DNA from: a virus
DNA length: 64,000 nt
Reading direction: 5' to 3' (one strand)
IMG/VR virus record: IMGVR_UViG_3300030110_003801
Span: 64,734 to 128,733 of that record
How positions within the stretch are numbered: the stretch's first letter is position 1; the number at the start of each line of letters is the position of its first letter. Made by a program: the position numbers and the translations under genes. The notes under the pieces are model-generated. The model worked only from the letters and a program-made list of their open reading frames with translations, did not search any database and had not been told where the DNA came from. Shown one piece after another: positions 11,093-23,589 of this stretch.

Positions 11093-11524
11093 TTACTTGT
11101 TTAATGGTCCTAATGTTGTTGAATTGACTTCTACCTTAGCCTCTGTAGCAACAAAATCTTCAGGCTTGGCTCCATCTCTATAAACACCGAGAATCCAATT
11201 TTGGAAAATCTGTGCATACTCTTTCGTGTTCCCCTTATCATCTTTCATAATCAAAGGGTATCCTGTTTGCTGACCCAAGATTACAAAATCCCCGGGACGC
11301 ACATTCACACACTCAGGACCGACTTTTAACACCTCATACGCTAAATCGTCCTCTGTGATAGACCTAGCTCCTTTTTTAGCCTCTTCAGGAATCAATATAC
11401 CCGAATCAGTAACGTCCTTAACTTCGTGCATCTTAACTACAATCCCGTCGTGAAGAGGGTGGTAGCTGTCTAGTGTTTGGTTATAGCCATTGTGCTTAAT
11501 ACCAACTAATGAATACTTACTCAT
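11093..11524 (-). CDS. groES: GroES/Cpn10-like co-chaperonin
   Basis: PLHDGIVVK, mobile loop TDSGILIP, VLKVGP..V.PGD.V. Confidence 0.85.
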   Translation of the reverse strand: MSKYSLVGIKHNGYNQTLDSYHPLHDGIVVKMHEVKDVTDSGILIPEEAKKGARSITEDDLAYEVLKVGPECVNVRPGDFVILGQQTGYPLIMKDDKGNTKEYAQIFQNWILGVYRDGAKPEDFVATEAKVEVNSTTLGPLNK

Positions 11525-11996: not shown

Positions 11997-12714
11997 TTCG
12001 GCAAAATTTAGAAAACTATAACTGTAAATAAGAGACCCTTATAGCATTTCTATTTACACTAAGTTAAAAATTATTCACACTAAACCCAAAATATAGCGGT
12101 TTTTTCTCAATATCCACCCCAAACACCCCATAAGTACCCCTCTTTTTGAAGCGCCACCCCTTTCGCATACAGGGCATTTCTAAGACATCTTTATCTCAAA
12201 CATGTACTACGACAACCAAATCGACTAGAAGTAAGCAGGGCAGGGTTTTAGAATAAATCTCACGAGGGGGGTAATAATATTTATTATTTGCATTGGCGCG
12301 CGAATCGAAAGGCGGTGGGGTGTTTTTCAGCTCAAAATTGGGTCCCATTAAAAAAATGTTTCCTCAATACCCTAATGTTTACAATACTTTGCGGAGTATA
12401 ACAATACAAAACGTTTCCATAATAGTGATAGTAATATAGTACTCAATAACCGTATTTCTATTTAACATAATAAGTATTATAAGAAACGGCTTTTTAACAT
12501 AACCCTTTGAAAACTAGGCAATTAATCAAAATTGTTTATCAATTAAGCCGAAAACCTAAACAAATTGACCGTTTTTTTTAATCTGTTTTTATTTCGCTTC
12601 AGTTAGGTTATCATTTTTTAACCCTTTATTTGTTGCCCACCAAAAACGGAAATTTCAAAACGTGTTGTTTCTTGCTTCTTATTCTCTTAATAGGTTAATA
12701 GTGTTTTATTGTGT

Positions 12715-12792
12715 GAAACGGTAACGGAAACGGAAACGAAAAACAGGAGCTAAAACAAGAGCTAAAACAGGAGCTAAAAACAGGAGCTAAAA
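12715..12792. repeat. Hexamer repeats (GAAACG) followed by 4 x AAAACAGGAGCT
   Basis: Directly visible tandem repeats in non-coding DNA. Confidence 0.85.
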
Positions 12793-13021
12793 AGCCCATA
12801 AATAAAAAAAATGATATATAAAAGAAAAACGTAAAAAAAAATATCAATTTTGCGCCTAATCGATTAACTAAGTTTTTTAATACTAGGATAAGCAAGAGTT
12901 AAAAAAAGTGCGTTAAAATGGCTTAAAATGAGTTTTAGATATTTTTACAAATTTTGTCATGTTAATTTTTTTTATTATACGCATGCGGGCGTTTCTATAT
13001 TAAAAAAAGGTATTTTGCTCT

Positions 13022-13236
13022 TAACTACTTGATAATCAATAACTTGCAAATAACCAATAAAGCTAACTAATTGATTTATAGTAAGTTAGCATTTCACCAC
13101 TATCATCAAAAAAAACGTTTCCCCTTGTAACTACTTGAAAAACAGACAGTTAACCAACTAAAAAATTTAACCAAAAAAAAAGTGAAAAAAAATTAAAAAA
13201 AATTTTACTTGTAACTAATTGAAAAACAAGTAGTTA
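13022..13236. repeat. Four 25-bp imperfect palindromes, TAACTA(C/A)TTGA-n9-AGTTA
   Basis: Copies start at 13022 (right arm degenerate), 13064, 13128 and 13212. Confidence 0.8.
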
Positions 13237-13278
13237 TAAATAAGAAGTAAAAAAAAATGATGGAAACGAAAAAAAAGT

Positions 13279-13310
13279 TTTGTTTTATCGAAAGTAATGA
13301 CGTAGATTTG
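13279..13310 (+). promoter_or_regulatory. Bacteroidota primary-sigma promoter (early)
   Basis: -33 TTTG at 13279-13282, 20-nt spacer, -7 TAGATTTG at 13303-13310 (consensus TAnnTTTG). Confidence 0.8.
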
Positions 13311-13316
13311 TAGAAG

Positions 13317-13831
13317 ACAAAAACATATAACCCCAATGAAACCGACCTACAGGTCGGGAAGGTAAAATATATACATATACGAGATAACGAGAAGCTGTGC
13401 TTCTTCAGGACTGCTGTGAGTAAGCCCGAAATTCGAACCCCATACGGGGGTTATCGGACGGTAGGATATACTGCTCACGGAATGAAACTTCGATGCTACG
13501 ATTAATTTTGTAGGGGGGAAACCCGTATTCGATTCCGTAATCTTTAGGCGTGGAAGCTAGAGGACAACCCTTGGCAACACGTAACCGAAACAAGCGAAGC
13601 GTTGTAATGGACAGGATACGTGTATCCAAACCAACACGACGGTACGTGGGCTGTAACAAGTGTGCCTGTATGGGACAGGGCAATTTACGGCGTATAAATG
13701 AGGCGACACACAAGGACTTTTAATGAGCTTTGGAGGAGGCTGTGGGACACTTGTGTCCTGTTAAAAAAGTGGTAACTCTTTACGTAGGTGAATACGTTTT
13801 GAGAGACGGTTCGATTCCGTCGGTCTCACTA
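13317..13831 (+). ncRNA. Large structured non-coding RNA candidate (~510 nt), family unassigned
   Basis: Starts just after a consensus promoter; GC-richer than its flanks; many helices with G-U pairs; GAAA and CUUG tetraloops; ends in a tRNA T-arm-like hairpin. Confidence 0.7.
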
Positions 13832-13852
13832 AACCATTAAATTTTATCAATT

Positions 13853-14311
13853 ATGAAGATTTCAGTAGAAATTTCGCAAGATGCTACGGTACGTAGTATG
13901 GAATTTGATATTCCAAAAACTGAGCTTAAGGCTCAAATCAATGCAGTATCTGACAGTTTAGCGTCGTACATTCACAAGCGTGTGAAAAGTGCGAAGTCGC
14001 AAAACAAACATTATTTGAAGGCTAACAAGCCATTGAGTATTCGTATTCAAGCAGGTACGAAAGTAGTATTTAATTCTAAAAAGTTGGATTGTTTAGACGC
14101 GCTAGGCTTCGAGTTGAAGTTTAATAGTCTACGCACACCCCAACAAATCCAAAACCTCAGTCGAAAGTTAAAGTTTGCTATGGACGAATTCTGTACGGAC
14201 TTCCGTATTGTAGACTTCGGTGATGACGTACTGGATTCCGTGGAGAGAACTATTGACGCTATGGACGTTCAATGGCTTAAGGAGTATTTAGCACAAAAGG
14301 AAGCAAAGTAG
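13853..14311 (+). CDS. Early hypothetical protein
   Basis: 152-aa ORF with AT-rich leader. Confidence 0.75.
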   Translation: MKISVEISQDATVRSMEFDIPKTELKAQINAVSDSLASYIHKRVKSAKSQNKHYLKANKPLSIRIQAGTKVVFNSKKLDCLDALGFELKFNSLRTPQQIQNLSRKLKFAMDEFCTDFRIVDFGDDVLDSVERTIDAMDVQWLKEYLAQKEAK

Positions 14312-14335
14312 GGAGGCGACAAGCCAAAGTTTCAA

Positions 14336-14357
14336 GGGGAGGGCGTATGCTCTCCTC
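14336..14357 (+). other. Stable hairpin immediately 5' of the tRNA
   Basis: GGGGAGGGC-GTAT-GCTCTCCTC; no U tract. Confidence 0.5.
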
Positions 14358-14362
14358 TAAAA

Positions 14363-14434
14363 GCCCCATTCGTCTAATGGTTAGGACGCACGGGTTTCAT
14401 CCGTGAAATAGGAGTTCGAATCTTCTATGGGGTA
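14363..14434 (+). tRNA. trnE: tRNA-Glu(TTC), CCA not encoded
   Basis: Acceptor GCCCCAT/ATGGGGT, D arm, anticodon stem CACGG/CCGTG with loop GTTTCAT, T arm AGGAG-TTCGAAT-CTTCT. Confidence 0.92.
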
Positions 14435-14449
14435 CTAAATTTATATACT

Positions 14450-14878
14450 ATGCTAACAAGTGATGTCTTCGACTTGAATGAGTCGAGCTTTAAAGGGCGT
14501 ACGGCTATGCAATATTTGTATGGTACGCCAAACGGTAACGTACGAGTGGTATTCTCGGACGGTATCAGAAACGATAGACGTGTGTCGTCGCATTTCAAAA
14601 CTCCTGTCAAGTACCTTAGTCATAAAGGCTTGGGAACGTGCGACACGTTCACTACCATCAAGGGTGGCAAGTCTGCAAAATTCGATAGGCTTGTTATTAA
14701 ATTTGAAAAGGCGCAGTTAAAAGTTCCTAAAGGATACGTTGAATACATACAACGCCCCGAAGTTTACGACTTTGATGTACTAGAGGACTTTGGTATTAAT
14801 CGTAAGGATGTAGGCGAATATTTGGGAGTCGGCAAAGTTCACAAAAAGAAAAAATTAATAATTTGTAAAGCAATTTAA
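14450..14878 (+). CDS. Hypothetical protein
   Basis: 142-aa ORF in the early operon. Confidence 0.7.
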   Translation: MLTSDVFDLNESSFKGRTAMQYLYGTPNGNVRVVFSDGIRNDRRVSSHFKTPVKYLSHKGLGTCDTFTTIKGGKSAKFDRLVIKFEKAQLKVPKGYVEYIQRPEVYDFDVLEDFGINRKDVGEYLGVGKVHKKKKLIICKAI

Positions 14879-16782: not shown

Positions 16783-18399
16783 ATGAGTACATTTATTGGA
16801 CAGGAGAATACGTTCTCCTTTGGCGAACCTTTGTTACACGCCTTGATGAGTATGCAATCGTCTTGTAAGATTGCGAGAACTTTAACTAGCAAACAGTTTC
16901 CTTTGGATGCTGTTGTTGTGTTTGATGGACACTACGACGCAGATAAGGACGGCAAGATATTGTTTGCCAAACAAGTTGGGGATACAACCCAACAAATGAA
17001 GCCCGGCAAGTTCTTACGCAGGGTGTTTCCTACTATTACGAAATACTGTAGCGACCAAGACATCGAGAGGTTTGTGAATCTGTTAAAGTCTAAGATGTGT
17101 AATGGAGACATCGAGATATGGGAGGGAGACGACATAGTTAGGTCTTACAAACGTGAGAACCATTACTCAGATAGCGGACCGCTTGGGTGTTCATGTATGA
17201 ATAACAAGTCATACACAAGTGCCTACACTAGCTCTTCAAACAAAAGCCTACACCCAAAGGTGGCTTGTGTTATGAAAGATGGAAAGATTGCAGGCAAGTC
17301 CCTTATATGGGACAATGTAGAGGTTTACATGGATGGCGAATGGCAGACACGTAAAGTAATGGATAGGATATACACTGTTGAGGACAAGTATATACAAGCT
17401 GTAGCCGAGTGGGGATTTATGAACGGGTACATTGTTCGTGATGAACGGAACTACGACGAGCGTATGAAATTCTACTTTGACCTATCAGACTTCAATACGA
17501 GAAATTACAGACACCTTTCCATGAGGGTTGACTCAGCCCTGTTTAGTGAGGCTGACTATTTCCCTTATACTGATACGTTCCACTTCGATGACGACTGCTA
17601 CATAACTAATGATGACGATGGTTGTTATGAACGTTCTTACTGCTCTACGGGTGGTGGCTCTTCTGAGTATGAAGATGAGGATTATGTTACCCTAGCTTGT
17701 GGCGAAAGAGTACATCAAGACGATGCTACATGGGTTGAAGATAGAGGTGAGTACTATTGCAACGATGACGTTACATGGGTAGGAGATTACGCTTACCACT
17801 ACGACGATGTTGTTGAAGATGTTGATGGAGATTACATACACAATGACAATGCCGTAGAGACATACTTTGGAGATACCGTACATGAAGACCGTATCGCTTC
17901 AACCGATTGTTCAGACGCATACAACTACATAGATGAAGATGTTGACAATGGTAGAGTTGTAATGGCTACAGCAGGAGAATACGAAGATGGTTACATACTA
18001 GCAGATGATTCTGTTGAGTTGGGAGATGGCACGCTTGTACATACTGACGACGATGTTGTTAAGGCAACACTCGGAAAATACGAGGATGAGTACATACTCT
18101 TGTCTGATTCCGTTGAGATAGCAGATGATAACATTGTACATGATGACGACAGCACCGTTATAGCAACGGCAGGTATGTACGAGGGAGAGTTTATCCTTGA
18201 AGATGATTCTGTTGAGTTGGCAGACGACATCGTACATACTGACGACGACACTGTTACTGCAACATGGGGAGAGAATGATGGGCTAGATATATTAGAGACT
18301 TTATCCGTAACGATAGACGGACATATCATGCACGAAGATGAGGAAGATGACTACATCGCAGAAAAACAAGAGAGAGAAGAGAATGAAGAGAATGAATAA
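16783..18399 (+). CDS. SCM/DRIY-motif protein, paralog 1, with acidic C-terminal repeats
   Basis: MKPGKF, LGCSCM, GKSLIW, MDRIY and FPYTDTF are shared with 20873..22588. Confidence 0.8.
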   Translation: MSTFIGQENTFSFGEPLLHALMSMQSSCKIARTLTSKQFPLDAVVVFDGHYDADKDGKILFAKQVGDTTQQMKPGKFLRRVFPTITKYCSDQDIERFVNLLKSKMCNGDIEIWEGDDIVRSYKRENHYSDSGPLGCSCMNNKSYTSAYTSSSNKSLHPKVACVMKDGKIAGKSLIWDNVEVYMDGEWQTRKVMDRIYTVEDKYIQAVAEWGFMNGYIVRDERNYDERMKFYFDLSDFNTRNYRHLSMRVDSALFSEADYFPYTDTFHFDDDCYITNDDDGCYERSYCSTGGGSSEYEDEDYVTLACGERVHQDDATWVEDRGEYYCNDDVTWVGDYAYHYDDVVEDVDGDYIHNDNAVETYFGDTVHEDRIASTDCSDAYNYIDEDVDNGRVVMATAGEYEDGYILADDSVELGDGTLVHTDDDVVKATLGKYEDEYILLSDSVEIADDNIVHDDDSTVIATAGMYEGEFILEDDSVELADDIVHTDDDTVTATWGENDGLDILETLSVTIDGHIMHEDEEDDYIAEKQEREENEENE

Positions 18400-18419
18400 A
18401 TATAAATCACTGTCAACAA

Positions 18420-18659
18420 ATGAAAAAATCACATTATGAACCACCTCAAGAGATTACTGATGTTTATGGAAATAGTATTCTTATACTACATTTTATCGGC
18501 AATATGTACTTTGTCTACCCTAACAAACAGGCTTATATCAGCCATAAAAAGGACAAAATAATAGAGGCAGAGTATTTTATAGTCTACCAACACGTCCTAC
18601 CAAAACTTAGGACTTTAAGTGTTGTTAATTATCAAATTATTAAAAGTAAATACCAATGA
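18420..18659 (+). CDS. Hypothetical protein
   Basis: 79-aa ORF, ATGA overlap with the next gene. Confidence 0.55.
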   Translation: MKKSHYEPPQEITDVYGNSILILHFIGNMYFVYPNKQAYISHKKDKIIEAEYFIVYQHVLPKLRTLSVVNYQIIKSKYQ

Positions 18660-19030
18660 AAAAGTTACAAATTACACAGCGTATGCACGAGAATTGGACG
18701 ACCAATTCCGGAGACGAGATTATACAAGGGAGGTTTTATGTTGTAATAGACAGGAAGCCAAACAAGATTAAACTAGCGGGTTTTGAGAACCATTGGGCAT
18801 TGGAGAACAGGTTTTCTATAGCCAATAAACAGGTGCAAGAAAAACTAACAGCTTTAATAAATAGTTTTGACGACCTGCAAAACTTTAGCCCAAGCGATAC
18901 CAACACGTCAGCTAGTAAAATACAAAGAGTTTGGGGATTGTCTGACGAATCTATGGCAAGTCTTTACGAGTGCATAAACTACATAAAGGATACAAAAGAA
19001 CAGGCTTTAATAGTTTGGGCAACATCGTAG
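18656..19030 (+). CDS. Hypothetical protein
   Basis: 124-aa ORF. Confidence 0.65.
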   Translation: MKKLQITQRMHENWTTNSGDEIIQGRFYVVIDRKPNKIKLAGFENHWALENRFSIANKQVQEKLTALINSFDDLQNFSPSDTNTSASKIQRVWGLSDESMASLYECINYIKDTKEQALIVWATS

Positions 19031-19034
19031 TGTT

Positions 19035-19568
19035 ATGACATACGGAGATATAAGTTTTGTTGCAAGCAAAATATGCGACGAGTTTGACATGCCCTTACAA
19101 GATGTACTTCACAAAAGAAGTAGAAAGCATCAAATAGTAAGGGCTTTTGTTTCCTACTATGGTATCATGCACACAGACCTAAAGTATAAAGACTTTAATG
19201 TTAAGTTAGGTGAAGTGTTTACAGATGGTACTGTGAGGCGACAAGAGAAAACAGGTAAGAAACTTTACAGAGAGTACTTTCGATTGAAGTACTTTAATTG
19301 GTACACGAGTAGTATGTTGCATTTGGATTGGTTCTTTAAACAGGAAGCGTCTAAATACTACGAGAAAGAAATGAAGTTAGGGCGAGGTATTCTACCCCCT
19401 AAATACCCATACAACGACGAGCCTATTGGCATAGTCAATGATTCGGGAGAAACTATAGTTACAAGCTATAAGAGAAACAAGGTCAAGTCTACTTACCCAA
19501 GTGGTCTTGGCGTACACAAAAGAACAGCGTCTAGGAAATACCTAGAACAAATTAAATTAAAAAAGTAA
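19035..19568 (+). CDS. Hypothetical protein, N-terminus reminiscent of a DnaA C-terminal HTH
   Basis: ICDEFDM...SRKHQIVRAFVSY pattern; weak. Confidence 0.55.
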   Translation: MTYGDISFVASKICDEFDMPLQDVLHKRSRKHQIVRAFVSYYGIMHTDLKYKDFNVKLGEVFTDGTVRRQEKTGKKLYREYFRLKYFNWYTSSMLHLDWFFKQEASKYYEKEMKLGRGILPPKYPYNDEPIGIVNDSGETIVTSYKRNKVKSTYPSGLGVHKRTASRKYLEQIKLKK

Positions 19569-20854
19569 TGCTTATGAAAAAGATTAACTCAGAATACTTG
19601 AGAGAAGTATTAAGCGTAAACACATGCTCCAATAGAGAGGAGCAAATGGTTGCTTTCCTTACGCATCAACTATCTGTTTGGGCATCAAACGCAGTAGTCG
19701 AACACACTAAGGACGGCAACATATTAGTAACAAAAAAGCAAACAGATTTCACAGGCTACCTTCCCTGTGTTGTAGCTCACATGGATACAGTACACGACAT
19801 ATACCCGGGCTTTAAAGTTCGTGAGGTAGATGGTAAACTGTTTGCTGTTCAGAACTATGGAAAGAAAAACGTATCTAAGGCGGGTATTGGGGGAGACGAC
19901 AAGGTTGGCGTATTCATAGCCCTAGAAATGCTTAAGACGTTTGACAATATAAAGGTTGCCTTCTTTACTAACGAAGAGATTGGCTGTATTGGTAGTAATG
20001 CGGTGGACTTAGATTGGTTCAATGATACAGCTTTCGTACTACAGGGCGATCGGAGGGGTAACAACGAGATTATTTATTCAGACATGAATGGCGTTGTAGC
20101 TTCAGACGAGTTTATAAATGACACAAAGCCAATAGCTACCAAACACGGCTATGTATTTAGCGACCAAGGTTCTTACACTGACGCAACTACAATGTCGAGT
20201 AACGGGCTGTGTGTATCAGCATACAACATTGCTTGTGGTTACTACAGTGCGCACACTATTGACGAGTACGTAGTAATATCAGATGTAGAAAAATCTTTGA
20301 ATCTGTTTGTTGACATCATTCAACACCTTACCGTTGACAGCAACAAGCAGTACTTACACGAAAACAAGCAAGACTATTACACCAATGGATACTATGACGA
20401 TTGGTATGGAGGGTACTACAATGATAACTTTTCATCATCAGTAGACACAGGGACATCAGTAGTTAAGTTGCCCCTAAAACAAGCAGAGAGAGATTTCCTA
20501 AAAGATACGTATGGAGATTGCGTGAATCATTGTTCAGATGAAGAGCTTATAAATTGGTATAGCGACGACATTGAATTGATGCGAATCGACAACGGAGAGG
20601 ATGTTATAGAATCTGTAAACACCGAGGATGTAGACGGCTTTAAAATAGAAGGTGGGTTCTTTATATATGGAAACCACAAAGTACACTTACCTAGCGAAAT
20701 AAAATGCTGTGTGTGTAGTGGTGGTAAAGCAATCAAGTACTTAGAGGAAGAGCCAAAGAGCCAAGCAGATTATCAATTAGAATACGTGTGTCAGTCTTGT
20801 GGAGAGATACTTGTTGACGAGTACACACTAATGGATTACTTAGACGAATTATAA
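19568..20854 (+). CDS. M20/M28-family Zn metallopeptidase 1 with C-terminal Zn ribbon
   Basis: AHMDTV, GGDDKVG, NEEIG, DRRG, YYSAHT; CCVC...CQSC. Confidence 0.85.
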   Translation: MLMKKINSEYLREVLSVNTCSNREEQMVAFLTHQLSVWASNAVVEHTKDGNILVTKKQTDFTGYLPCVVAHMDTVHDIYPGFKVREVDGKLFAVQNYGKKNVSKAGIGGDDKVGVFIALEMLKTFDNIKVAFFTNEEIGCIGSNAVDLDWFNDTAFVLQGDRRGNNEIIYSDMNGVVASDEFINDTKPIATKHGYVFSDQGSYTDATTMSSNGLCVSAYNIACGYYSAHTIDEYVVISDVEKSLNLFVDIIQHLTVDSNKQYLHENKQDYYTNGYYDDWYGGYYNDNFSSSVDTGTSVVKLPLKQAERDFLKDTYGDCVNHCSDEELINWYSDDIELMRIDNGEDVIESVNTEDVDGFKIEGGFFIYGNHKVHLPSEIKCCVCSGGKAIKYLEEEPKSQADYQLEYVCQSCGEILVDEYTLMDYLDEL

Positions 20855-20872
20855 AACATAAAACCGTGAATT

Positions 20873-22588
20873 ATGAGAATAGAAATTTCAGAAGACTTAA
20901 AAGAAAAACTTAAGTCACTAGACAACAACGTTGTAAAACTTCTGTTTTGCAATAACAAAAAAGAATTTTTAGCACCCAATCCTGTAGTTATAATTAAATC
21001 CTATGTAGATGAGTCAGGAAACAACAACGATGGATATGTTACCATAATTAAAGAAGACAATAGGTCTGCCAACATGAAACTATCAAGAATCTTTAAGCAT
21101 GTTTTCAATAAGGATTTTTACAGTAATTTACTATCATCAGATATCGAACAAGCTAACAACGATTTTGTTTCTTTGTGTGCTACACACGTCTTTAAAGTTG
21201 TTAGTAATGTTAGACTGTTTTACGAAGAGTCGTCATACTATGGTTATGGTACATCTATTCAAGACGACAGGACAGGTACTCTTTGGAAGTCTTGTATGCG
21301 AAACAATATGCACAACTGTGGACAGTTTTTTGAGTGCAACCCGTCTATAAAACTACTTGTTAAGCTAAAAAACGACAAGGTTGTTGGTAGGGCGTTGCTT
21401 TGGCAGAGGGTTTTGTGTAACGACACAGGAAAAGAGTTTGACTTCATGGACAGAATATACACCGTTTATGACCACGATGTAAAAGCGTTTAAAGATTGGG
21501 CGCAAGATAATGGTTATTGCCGAAAAGAATTTCAAACGTATGAAGACCTAGTTGATTTTATTGATGAAAAAGGAAGTCATTTTAAGGTTCGTAACGCTTC
21601 TGTAGATATAAAAAACTATGACCCATACGACTACACAGATGAAAGAGGCATACCCTACTTCGATACGTTTATGTATGTAAATAACAATAATACCTTGTCT
21701 AACTACATAAACAAACACTCTGCTTTTGAAGCTAGAGACCCCGAAGGTCATAAGACTATTTTAGAAACAGCAGATTACAAGAAGTCGGGGGTTTACATGA
21801 ACACTCAATTTATGAGATACATTGATTCTACTAATCGTTGGGTATTAGAAAACGAATCTGTATGGGTACCAAGCGCATCTTGTTATGAAGAGATAGAAAA
21901 CGTTACGCACCTTGATGGAGAGGCGTACAGAACAAAAGATATTAAGTTTTCTAACATATACAAAAAAGACATACCTATAATTAATGGAGCTTTTTACTGT
22001 GAAGCGTCAGAGTCTTGGTTGCTTAGTAAGGACGGTGTACACGTAGGAGATAGGTTCATTTGGAAGGAAGCCGCACGTTGGTCTCACGCACAACAATGCT
22101 ACATAGAAGGCATAAAATCCCAAAACATACACTTTCTTGCTAACAAAACAAACGACGTTATAGAGAAAAATTTGTATGTAGAATTAAGAAAAAAGTATAT
22201 AAACTTTAGGATAACAACTGAGTTTATTCACGACATACTTAACTTCTCTTTTGGCAAGGTAATACCATTCAATACCGAAATGGCTTTAAACAAACACGCT
22301 AGGCACTTGTTTTTTCCACCATTATTTTTCTTGAGAGGGCTTCAAGACCTACATAATTGTAGCCCTAGCTTTTTTGATAAGTGCTATAAGCGTGAATCGT
22401 TTGATAATTCAGACTACCATAAAGAATCTTTTAGAGAAGACCTTGGTTGGATAAAAAAGTCATCCGAAATAATTGACAAGAATAATACAATACTTTATTT
22501 GTTTATGGACTTAGCTAATAACAGAGGGTTTCAAGTTGAGAACGCAGATGAGTTGTATAAAGAAAGTAATAACATTTTAATTAAATAA
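20873..22588 (+). CDS. SCM/DRIY-motif protein, paralog 2
   Basis: MKLSRIF, LWKSCM, GRALLW, MDRIY, IPYFDTF. Confidence 0.8.
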   Translation: MRIEISEDLKEKLKSLDNNVVKLLFCNNKKEFLAPNPVVIIKSYVDESGNNNDGYVTIIKEDNRSANMKLSRIFKHVFNKDFYSNLLSSDIEQANNDFVSLCATHVFKVVSNVRLFYEESSYYGYGTSIQDDRTGTLWKSCMRNNMHNCGQFFECNPSIKLLVKLKNDKVVGRALLWQRVLCNDTGKEFDFMDRIYTVYDHDVKAFKDWAQDNGYCRKEFQTYEDLVDFIDEKGSHFKVRNASVDIKNYDPYDYTDERGIPYFDTFMYVNNNNTLSNYINKHSAFEARDPEGHKTILETADYKKSGVYMNTQFMRYIDSTNRWVLENESVWVPSASCYEEIENVTHLDGEAYRTKDIKFSNIYKKDIPIINGAFYCEASESWLLSKDGVHVGDRFIWKEAARWSHAQQCYIEGIKSQNIHFLANKTNDVIEKNLYVELRKKYINFRITTEFIHDILNFSFGKVIPFNTEMALNKHARHLFFPPLFFLRGLQDLHNCSPSFFDKCYKRESFDNSDYHKESFREDLGWIKKSSEIIDKNNTILYLFMDLANNRGFQVENADELYKESNNILIK

Positions 22589-22590
22589 TT

Positions 22591-23589
22591 ATGAATTTAG
22601 AATCACACAAAAGAAAAGAACTACAGATACTTTTTGAATTGTTCAAAATAAACTCTCCTTCGGGAAAAGAACAAGCAGTAAAAAAGTACGTGAAAAACAT
22701 TTGCAAGATGTTTAAAATAAATTGCAAGACAGATAAAAAAGGAAATCTATACCTTAAAAAGGGTAGAGGAGTTAGACCTTGTTTGGCGGCTCACTTAGAT
22801 ACCGTGTTTACAGACAAGCCTATCATTACACCTGTTGTTGTAAACAGCACTACTATAATTGGTTACGACACTAAAGGTAATGAGCAATGTGGCTTAGGCG
22901 CAGACGATAAGGTTGGAGTGTTCATTGTGCTTAGAGCTATGCTTAAGTACAAGAACATCAAAGCTGTTTTGACGGTTGAAGAGGAGACGGGTTGCCTTGG
23001 AGCTAAAGAAATAAATTTAGATTTCTTTCAAGATGTCGCATACGTATTACAGGCAGACAGGAAAGGGTATGGAGATTTTGTAACGATAGCTTCAAACTCA
23101 AGATACTCAGACATAGTTTTATGTAGTAAAGAGTTTGAAGATGGGTGTAAACCTATTATATCCAAGTATGGCTTTAAGCAAACAGATGGCGGTTCAACAG
23201 ATGTTGTTATGTTCAAGGAATTAGGTATGGATATATCTGTCGTCAATATGTCTTGTGGATACTATGACGCACACGAAGAGACAGAATACATCAACCCTGA
23301 AGAGGTGCTAAACACACTGAAGATGACCTTTGATGTTATAGATAACTTACCCTTAAAAAGGTATACGCACAAAGCAACACTTAAGAAAACTACCTACAGT
23401 TATAATGGGTATTCAAGCAAGGCTTCATGGGGTACTTCATCATGGGGTAAATCAAGCGGAAACTACAAAAGCTCAAAGGCTAGTAGTGCTAAAAGAAATA
23501 CGTGGACGAACTACCACAGCCTTCAGCAGATATCAAACACTATGAACTCAAAAGTTTCAAGACCAATACCAAAATCACTCCCTTTTTAA
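22591..23589 (+). CDS. M20/M28-family Zn metallopeptidase 2
   Basis: SPSGKE, AHLDTV, GADDKVG, EEETG, DRKG, YYDAHE. Confidence 0.88.
   Translation: MNLESHKRKELQILFELFKINSPSGKEQAVKKYVKNICKMFKINCKTDKKGNLYLKKGRGVRPCLAAHLDTVFTDKPIITPVVVNSTTIIGYDTKGNEQCGLGADDKVGVFIVLRAMLKYKNIKAVLTVEEETGCLGAKEINLDFFQDVAYVLQADRKGYGDFVTIASNSRYSDIVLCSKEFEDGCKPIISKYGFKQTDGGSTDVVMFKELGMDISVVNMSCGYYDAHEETEYINPEEVLNTLKMTFDVIDNLPLKRYTHKATLKKTTYSYNGYSSKASWGTSSWGKSSGNYKSSKASSAKRNTWTNYHSLQQISNTMNSKVSRPIPKSLPF

What the first reader, a model, noticed from the sequence alone, without database searches (positions are those of the whole stretch)
13317..13831. ~510-nt ornate non-coding RNA as the first early transcript, ending in a tRNA-like T-arm
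Seen: directly after a consensus promoter lies a GC-richer stretch with no plus-strand ORF in the track and dense pairing. Helices include CCGACC/GGTCGG (13342-13357), AGAAGC/GCTTCT (13390-13404), CTGTGAGTA/TGCTCACGG (13414-13480) enclosing AACCCC/GGGGTT, and GGAAT/ATTCC enclosing CTACGA/TTGTAG and GGG-GAAA-CCC. Further 3' are GGATA/TATCC (13614-13627), GGACA-CTTG-TGTCC (13745-13758), and a terminal TGAGA-GACGG-TTCGATT-CCGTC-GG-TCTCA. The last helix runs into ACTAAA, the same 3' flank as the neighbouring tRNA. G-U pairs support the plus strand. Known: large phage RNAs near tRNAs exist (GOLLD, ROOL), but I see no tmRNA, RNase P or intron signature. Inference: a divergent or new class of large phage RNA processed by tRNA-maturation enzymes, possibly a scaffold, ribozyme or anti-defence decoy.
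Basis: partly seen in the sequence, partly recalled or inferred. Interest (0 to 1): 0.88.

Follow-up and report, generated by a model that had tools for sequence, protein, structure and literature searches.

The report
Phage structured RNA with tRNA-like end
A marine crAss-like phage carries a roughly 510-base non-coding, folded RNA that ends in a tRNA look-alike and matches no catalogued RNA family, so it is a candidate new phage RNA, supported so far by very few relatives.

Summary
The observation largely holds. Window 13318-13828 (+) is ORF-poor and GC-rich (0.47 against about 0.37). It follows a Bacteroidota-type promoter match and hits no Rfam family at gathering score.

The only usable relative is L003, a metagenome contig covering the 3' 280 nt. 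It keeps the predicted helices through compensatory changes: 11 of 63 pairs changed on both sides, none broken, against 0-1 in slid controls. A structure predicted from the window alone gave 10 of 73.

The last ~93 nt (13736-13828) form a tRNA-like fold: acceptor stem, three hairpins and a T arm. Its 3' flank, A-CTAAA, is the same as that of the neighbouring tRNA-Glu. It is not a tRNA or a tmRNA. The acceptor partner lies at 13736-13742.

A metatranscriptome contig is identical to 13385-13748.

Best reading: a new large phage ncRNA whose tRNA mimic recruits RNase P and 3' tRNA processing to release it from the operon transcript.

Limits: the 5' half has no comparative support, there is no evidence of processing, and the function is unknown. 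A more distant phage (L005) has a similarly placed ORF-free region ending in a mini tRNA-like element. Homology of its body to this RNA is unproven.

The parts
13005..13236 (.). Array of repeated, partly palindromic sites upstream of the promoter (iteron- or operator-like)
   Evidence: the repeat finder found 3 copies of a 42-nt unit and a 32-nt inverted pair. L005 has an analogous array of 4 copies of an 18-nt unit upstream of its ORF-free region.
13279..13310 (+). Promoter match: TTTG (-33), 20-nt spacer, TAGATTTG (-7)
   Evidence: Pattern match. In DNA variant X4 the flanks carry 8 substitutions between 13289 and 13314, but the TAnnTTTG letters are kept. The consensus itself is recalled, not tested.
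13318..13565 (+). 5' half of the RNA body. Hairpins at 13342-13357 and 13390-13404. Helix 13477-13483 with 13532-13538 enclosing two hairpins.
   Evidence: MFE folds. The X4 variant lists one substitution in 13320-13436, C13343T, which turns C-G into U-G, and 8 substitutions plus 3 indels in 13282-13319. No divergent homologue covers this half. The 5' end is inferred.
13566..13735 (+). 3' domain of the body. CCTT 13569-72 with GAGG 13700-03. CACGT/ACC 13578-86 with GGT/ACGTG 13641-48. Hairpin 13614-13627. Helix 13650-56 with 13685-91. Hairpin 13665-13679.
   Evidence: RNAalifold with L003 gave 39 pairs, 5 with both sides changed and none broken. Hairpin 13665-79 is replaced in L003 by a different 5-bp hairpin (by eye).
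13736..13828 (+). tRNA-like element. Acceptor 13736-42 with 13821-27. Hairpin 13744-59. Invariant segment 13760-76. Long arm 13776-13803 capped by a GNRA-type loop. T arm 13805-21. Unpaired A13828.
   Evidence: 24 pairs, 6 with both sides changed. In the window-only fold 24 of 25 pairs are kept in L003. Rfam tRNA-Sec scored 18.7 bits, E 0.8, below the cut-off of 47. ARAGORN calls it only at an 80% threshold.
13829..13852 (+). 3' trailer CTAAA and spacer up to the first ORF (ATG at 13853)
   Evidence: The same A-CTAAA follows tRNA-Glu at 14435. No terminator-like site lies on the plus strand.
13385..13748 (.). Stretch present as one 364-nt contig, 100% identical, in a marine metatranscriptome library (run X3)
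   Evidence: read-laying table 8. This shows presence in an RNA library only. It gives no strand, no ends and no proof of transcription.
14363..14435 (+). Genuine tRNA-Glu (TTC) in the same transcription direction
   Evidence: ARAGORN and Rfam tRNA at 55.2 bits.

Best explanation
A plus-strand transcript starts near 13318, after a Bacteroidota-type promoter. It folds into a multi-helix non-coding RNA of about 420 nt (13318-13735). A roughly 93-nt tRNA-like element follows directly (13736-13828), keeping a tRNA-like acceptor stem stacked on a T arm but lacking a working anticodon arm.

Proposed mechanism (inferred). Host RNase P cuts at 13735/13736. The host 3' tRNA-processing activity cuts after A13828, as it would for the adjacent tRNA-Glu. 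This would release three products from one early operon transcript: a stable large ncRNA with a defined 3' end, a small tRNA mimic, and the downstream mRNA. It would be the phage counterpart of MALAT1/mascRNA-type maturation, and of tRNAs linked to GOLLD RNAs.

The large RNA then probably acts in trans as a protein- or RNA-binding scaffold or decoy. That last step is a guess.

What is shown: the region is non-coding, the structure is conserved on the plus strand, the tRNA-like fold exists, the 3' flank is shared with tRNA-Glu, and the sequence is present in an RNA library.

What is inferred: the transcription start, both cleavages, the stability of the products, and the function.
For: Non-coding:
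- No plus-strand ORF exceeds 57 aa.
- Indels of 1, 1, 1 and 2 nt against L003 break the minus-strand ORF and the 57-aa plus-strand ORF.

Structure:
- On window 13566-13832 against L003, 63 of 63 RNAalifold pairs hold in both sequences. 11 changed on both sides. Slid controls gave 0-1, and 0 of 500 shuffles reached the observed value.
- With a structure predicted from the window alone, L003 keeps 59 of 73 pairs and 10 changed on both sides. Slid controls gave 0-1, and 2 of 500 shuffles reached the observed value.

Strand:
- 16 of 126 cells are G-U pairs, which would be A-C on the other strand.
- The X4 change C13343T gives a U-G pair.

Conservation:
- RNA identity to L003 is 216 of 278 aligned columns. 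That is like the neighbouring ORF (359 of 463) and tRNA-Glu (59 of 73).
- In X4, conservation starts sharply at about 13320.

tRNA-like element:
- Searches support the fold.
- Its 3' flank is identical to that of tRNA-Glu.

Other:
- No terminator-like site lies between the RNA and the ORF.
- An RNA-library contig spans 13385-13748.
- No Rfam family matches.
- Precedent: GOLLD and ROOL lie near tRNA islands, and tRNAs sometimes sit in the GOLLD linker (passages read).
Against: - Only one divergent homologue exists, and it covers only the 3' 280 nt. The 5' half has no comparative support.
- The RNAalifold structure was derived from the same two sequences that were used to count covariation.
- Two helices of the window-only fold fail in L003. 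Helix 1 has 3 of 13 pairs broken and helix 6 has 5 of 8 broken.
- Folding-energy z-scores are weak.
- Covariance models of both modules find no further member among 17-20 related loci.
- The acceptor plus T stack is 11 bp, not the canonical 12. No CCA is encoded.
- The RNA-library contig runs 12-13 nt past the proposed RNase P site. So either uncleaved molecules exist or the library holds DNA.
- A 25-codon ORF (13698-13775) stays open in L003.
- Nothing bears on function.
Confidence: 0.55

Rival explanations
1. It is a long structured 5' leader that acts only in cis on the early operon, through antitermination, mRNA stability or control of translation of ORF 13853. It is never released as a separate RNA. 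The tRNA-like fold would be a regulatory protein-binding or punctuation site.
For: No terminator-like site lies between the RNA and the ORF. The tRNA-like element ends 24 nt before the ATG. The RNA-library contig crosses the proposed cleavage site. TAATGG at 13605-10 is complementary to CCATTA at 13834-39, and both are kept in L003 (by eye).
Against: A 500-nt leader with conserved multi-helix domains and a near-complete tRNA upper half is unusual for cis control. The 3' flank shared with a true tRNA points to processing. No known leader family matches.
Confidence: 0.2
2. The transcript belongs to a replication origin. Iteron-like repeats, an AT-rich stretch and a promoter would yield an RNA that activates or primes replication, as at ColE1 RNA II or the T4 and T7 origins (recalled).
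For: Repeat arrays lie upstream in both the window and L005. GC skew changes sign near 12200-12600. The region lies between divergent gene blocks.
Against: The skew change coincides with the switch of coding strand. Compensatory changes show selection on RNA folding rather than on an R-loop. The tRNA-like end is not explained.
Confidence: 0.08
3. The last 95 nt are a working but aberrant tRNA, for example Thr-GGT with a long extra arm. The upstream 420 nt would be merely its long leader.
For: ARAGORN at an 80% threshold calls tRNA-Thr(GGT) in both the window and L003. The loop GTGGTAA has T at position 33 and A at position 37.
Against: There is no call at default thresholds. The Rfam tRNA model gives no hit at E up to 10, and tRNA-Sec scores 18.7 bits against a cut-off of 47. 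The anticodon stem has 2 of 5 mismatches in each sequence and shows no compensation. The upstream body itself shows covariation.
Confidence: 0.07
4. Conservation of 13698-13775 reflects a 25-aa micro-protein, or a tmRNA-like tag frame, rather than RNA structure.
For: The ORF is open, has the same length and has no indel in L003. Its last 10 codons are nearly identical.
Against: Differences by codon position are 6/6/3, which is not coding-like. The real ORF next door gives 26/12/70. ARAGORN in tmRNA mode finds nothing. There is no G3-U70 pair. The same bases form helices with compensatory changes.
Confidence: 0.05
5. It is a chance-folding intergenic spacer with no function.
For: Energy z-scores are weak. 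Very few homologues exist.
Against: Identity to L003 equals that of coding DNA. All 17 varying RNAalifold pairs stay paired. Conservation starts sharply at about 13320.
Confidence: 0.05

Closest known systems
GOLLD and ROOL large ornate phage RNAs
   Same: Large, multi-helix, phage-borne RNAs of unknown function that lie next to, or are covalently linked with, tRNAs (passages read in bioRxiv 10.1101/2024.12.08.627333).
   Different: No match to either Rfam model, even at E up to 10 on a 901-nt search. It is shorter, about 510 nt. The host virus is a marine crAss-like phage. The linked element is a tRNA mimic, not a tRNA. Multimer formation is untested.
MALAT1/NEAT1-mascRNA 3'-end maturation by tRNA enzymes
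   Same: A long ncRNA followed directly by a tRNA-like fold that lacks a working anticodon loop. In MALAT1 this fold is cut by RNase P and RNase Z (seen only in search listings and abstract starts of PMC8457004 and PMC12941219).
   Different: That system is eukaryotic and nuclear, and there is no sequence relation. Cleavage is not shown here. No triple-helix end protection is seen.
Canonical tRNA and tRNA-Sec
   Same: Acceptor stem, T arm with a TTCGATT loop, a 6-bp/4-nt hairpin in the D-arm position as in tRNA-Sec, a long extra arm, and the same 3' trailer as the phage tRNA-Glu.
   Different: It scores below every tRNA threshold. There is no sound anticodon stem. The acceptor plus T stack is 11 bp.
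tmRNA
   Same: A tRNA-like domain next to a short open frame that ends in TAA.
   Different: It is not detected by ARAGORN or Rfam. There is no G3-U70 pair. The acceptor strands are 80 nt apart and do not enclose the body.
Stable RNAs of phage tRNA clusters and RNase P-processed phage RNAs (T4 species 1 and 2, P1/P7 C4 RNA)
   Same: Phage non-tRNA RNAs matured by tRNA-processing enzymes.
   Different: Those RNAs are small, about 80-140 nt, and unrelated in sequence. No large folded body is attached.

Membership tests
tRNA (Rfam RF00005; ARAGORN) | Scores above the family or program threshold as a cloverleaf | tested here: not met
   Only tRNA-Glu 14363-14435 is called. In the sensitive search the region gives tRNA-Sec at 18.7 bits against a cut-off of 47, and no RF00005 hit.
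tRNA (Rfam RF00005; ARAGORN) | Acceptor stem stacked on a 5-bp T stem with a 7-nt T loop | tested here: met
   Acceptor of 6-7 bp with 2 compensatory pairs. T arm of 5 bp with one C-G to U-G change. The total stack is 11 bp, not 12.
tRNA (Rfam RF00005; ARAGORN) | 5-bp anticodon stem with a 7-nt loop | tested here: not met
   It appears only at an 80% ARAGORN threshold. 2 of 5 stem positions are mismatched in the window and in L003.
tmRNA | Detected by ARAGORN in tmRNA mode or by the Rfam tmRNA models | tested here: not met
tmRNA | G3-U70 in the acceptor stem, with 5' and 3' ends of the whole RNA forming that stem | tested here: not met
   Position 3 pairs as G-C (window) or A-U (L003). The 5' strand lies only about 80 nt upstream of the 3' strand.
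GOLLD (RF01998) / ROOL (RF03087) | Match to the family covariance model | tested here: not met
   No hit at gathering score or at E up to 10 on 13100-14000.
GOLLD (RF01998) / ROOL (RF03087) | Phage-borne, and adjacent to or linked with tRNAs | tested here: met
   The record is a phage with terminase and portal. The tRNA-like element is attached, and tRNA-Glu lies 535 nt downstream.
GOLLD (RF01998) / ROOL (RF03087) | Self-assembly into multimeric cages | not testable with these tools
   This needs cryo-EM or size-exclusion chromatography with light scattering (SEC-MALS).
tRNA-like 3'-end processing module (mascRNA type) | A tRNA-like fold directly 3' of a long ncRNA | tested here: met
tRNA-like 3'-end processing module (mascRNA type) | Cleavage by RNase P and a 3' tRNA endonuclease | not testable with these tools
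   Only contigs were available, with no read ends.
Bacterial Y RNA (YrlA) with Ro/Rsr | Rfam match, and a TROVE-domain protein in the genome | tested here: not met
   No Rfam hit. There is no PF05731 match in the 128.7-kb record. The record is estimated 86% complete.
RNase P RNA / group I intron | Match to the Rfam models | tested here: not met

The most novel reading that the evidence does not exclude
A previously undescribed class of large RNA in marine crAss-like phages. A folded RNA of about 420 nt is cut free and given its ends by a covalently attached mimic of the acceptor-and-T-arm half of a tRNA, making it a bacterial-virus counterpart of MALAT1/mascRNA. It then acts in trans early in infection, as a scaffold or cage, or as a decoy for host enzymes or defences that recognise tRNA. 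The similarly placed RNA of L005, with its stripped-down tRNA mimic, would be a second and very divergent member.
Probability: 0.3. Interest if true: 0.8.

Novelty: new variant of a known kind. Interest (0 to 1): 0.6.

Why it matters
Large structured RNAs of phages, such as GOLLD and ROOL, are few and striking, and their function is still unknown. A new unrelated example would widen that class to an abundant but poorly known virus group: a crAss-like phage of marine Bacteroidota, in which the RNA is joined to a tRNA mimic rather than a tRNA. It would also give a simple, testable maturation mechanism, namely RNase P-dependent release of a long ncRNA, which to my knowledge is documented for eukaryotic lncRNAs but not for a phage RNA of this size. 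The present evidence is thin. It rests on one divergent homologue, so this is a lead and not an established family.

Tried and rejected
Homologue hunts that found nothing:
- blastn of the region against 50,697 phage records, and of the L005 region.
- tblastn of the neighbouring ORF against phages.
- The search for related loci with the neighbouring ORF alone, and with its 6-sequence alignment, in IMG/VR.
- DNA patterns from the tRNA-like element and from the body in IMG/VR and in GTDB genomes.
- The terminase alignment in GTDB genomes.
- The first ORF of L005 in IMG/VR, which returned only its own contig.
- The search of earlier findings by sequence: 0 windows.

Homologue hunts with limited yield:
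- A looser pattern for a D-loop-plus-T-loop mimic gave 25 loci. 1 was L005's own contig. 3 (L026, L027, L037) were an unrelated odd tRNA-like element. The rest looked like chance matches in coding DNA.
- Of 14 terminase-related IMG/VR loci, only L005 holds an equivalent region with a T arm. L002, L006 and L007 end before it.

Homology of L005 to the window RNA:
- blastn, nhmmer, k-mer comparison and local alignment show similarity only at the T loop and trailer.
- Models R1 and R2 give no significant hit in L005.
- The first ORFs after the two RNAs are not detectably related (E 1.8).
- I therefore do not count L005 as a member.

Partner genes. There is no RVT_1, TROVE, PolyA_pol/CCA or RtcB match in the phage record. 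Twenty downstream proteins gave only peptidase, YqaJ, initiator-like and PDDEXK domains.

Coverage gaps. In run X3 no contig lay on 12600-13384 or 13749-14600. The run was chosen because it holds this stretch, and contigs prove no absence, so this is not used as evidence of higher abundance. The contig ends at 13385 and 13748 are not used as RNA ends. Habitat: the 4 laid runs, from 4 studies, are marine or seawater.

Literature. Searches listed no paper on a large ncRNA or tRNA-like element in crAss-like phages. PMC9226505 mentions crAss-like phages only in relation to reverse-transcriptase families. Supplements were closed and not consulted.

Recalled, from no call:
- The Bacteroidota promoter consensus.
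- The D-loop resemblance of AGTGGTA.
- GNRA loop lore.
- T4 species 1 and 2 RNAs and the P1 C4 RNA.
- Origin RNAs of ColE1, T4 and T7.
- The MALAT1 triple helix.

Full report
Setting. The window is the second half of a 128.7-kb IMG/VR virus record with an estimated completeness of 86%. Its terminase and portal match phage families. By tblastn the terminase is 23-25% identical to those of crAss-like phages of Bacteroidota. The phage is therefore a distant, environmental crAss-like phage. Leftward structural genes end at 11524 and rightward genes start at 13853, which leaves a 2.3-kb divergent gap. The finding occupies the right end of that gap.
Noticed in passing
window 13698-13775: A 25-codon plus-strand ORF spans the linker and the first half of the tRNA-like element. 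It is open, with the same length and no indel, in L003 167-244. Differences by codon position are 6/6/3, which is not coding-like.
   Followed up: partly
window 13005-13236; L005 4255-4510: Both phages carry an array of repeated sites upstream of the promoter of the ORF-free region. The window has 3 copies of a 42-nt unit and a 32-nt inverted pair. L005 has 4 copies of an 18-nt unit spaced 70-85 nt apart. They look like operators or iterons.
   Followed up: partly
L005 3330-3900 (minus strand): An ORF-free stretch of about 550 nt ends in a mini tRNA-like element: a 6-bp acceptor, a D-loop-like hairpin, a T arm, an unpaired A and CTAT. It sits at the same relative genome position as the window RNA. 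There is no Rfam hit and no sequence similarity of the body.
   Followed up: partly
L037 12258-12340 and about 12616-12687 (also L026, L027): In an unrelated IMG/VR phage, ARAGORN calls a tRNA with a 4-nt anticodon (tgcg). About 280 nt downstream lies an uncalled 72-nt tRNA-like element with a G3-U70 acceptor pair and a good T arm.
   Followed up: no
window 13605-13610 and 13834-13839: TAATGG in a conserved junction of the RNA body is complementary to CCATTA in the trailer, just before the first ORF. Both are kept in L003 (by eye). This is a possible long-range contact that could affect translation of ORF 13853.
   Followed up: no
window 12800-12850: Many contigs of other organisms in runs X4, X5 and X8 align here at under 90% identity with loose ends. 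The stretch is low-complexity and repeat-like, and it overlaps a minus ORF with SSCF repeats.
   Followed up: no
window 16783-23589: Two M20/M28/M42-type peptidase genes (19568-20851 and 22591-23586) each follow a large protein with no Pfam or PHROG match.
   Followed up: no
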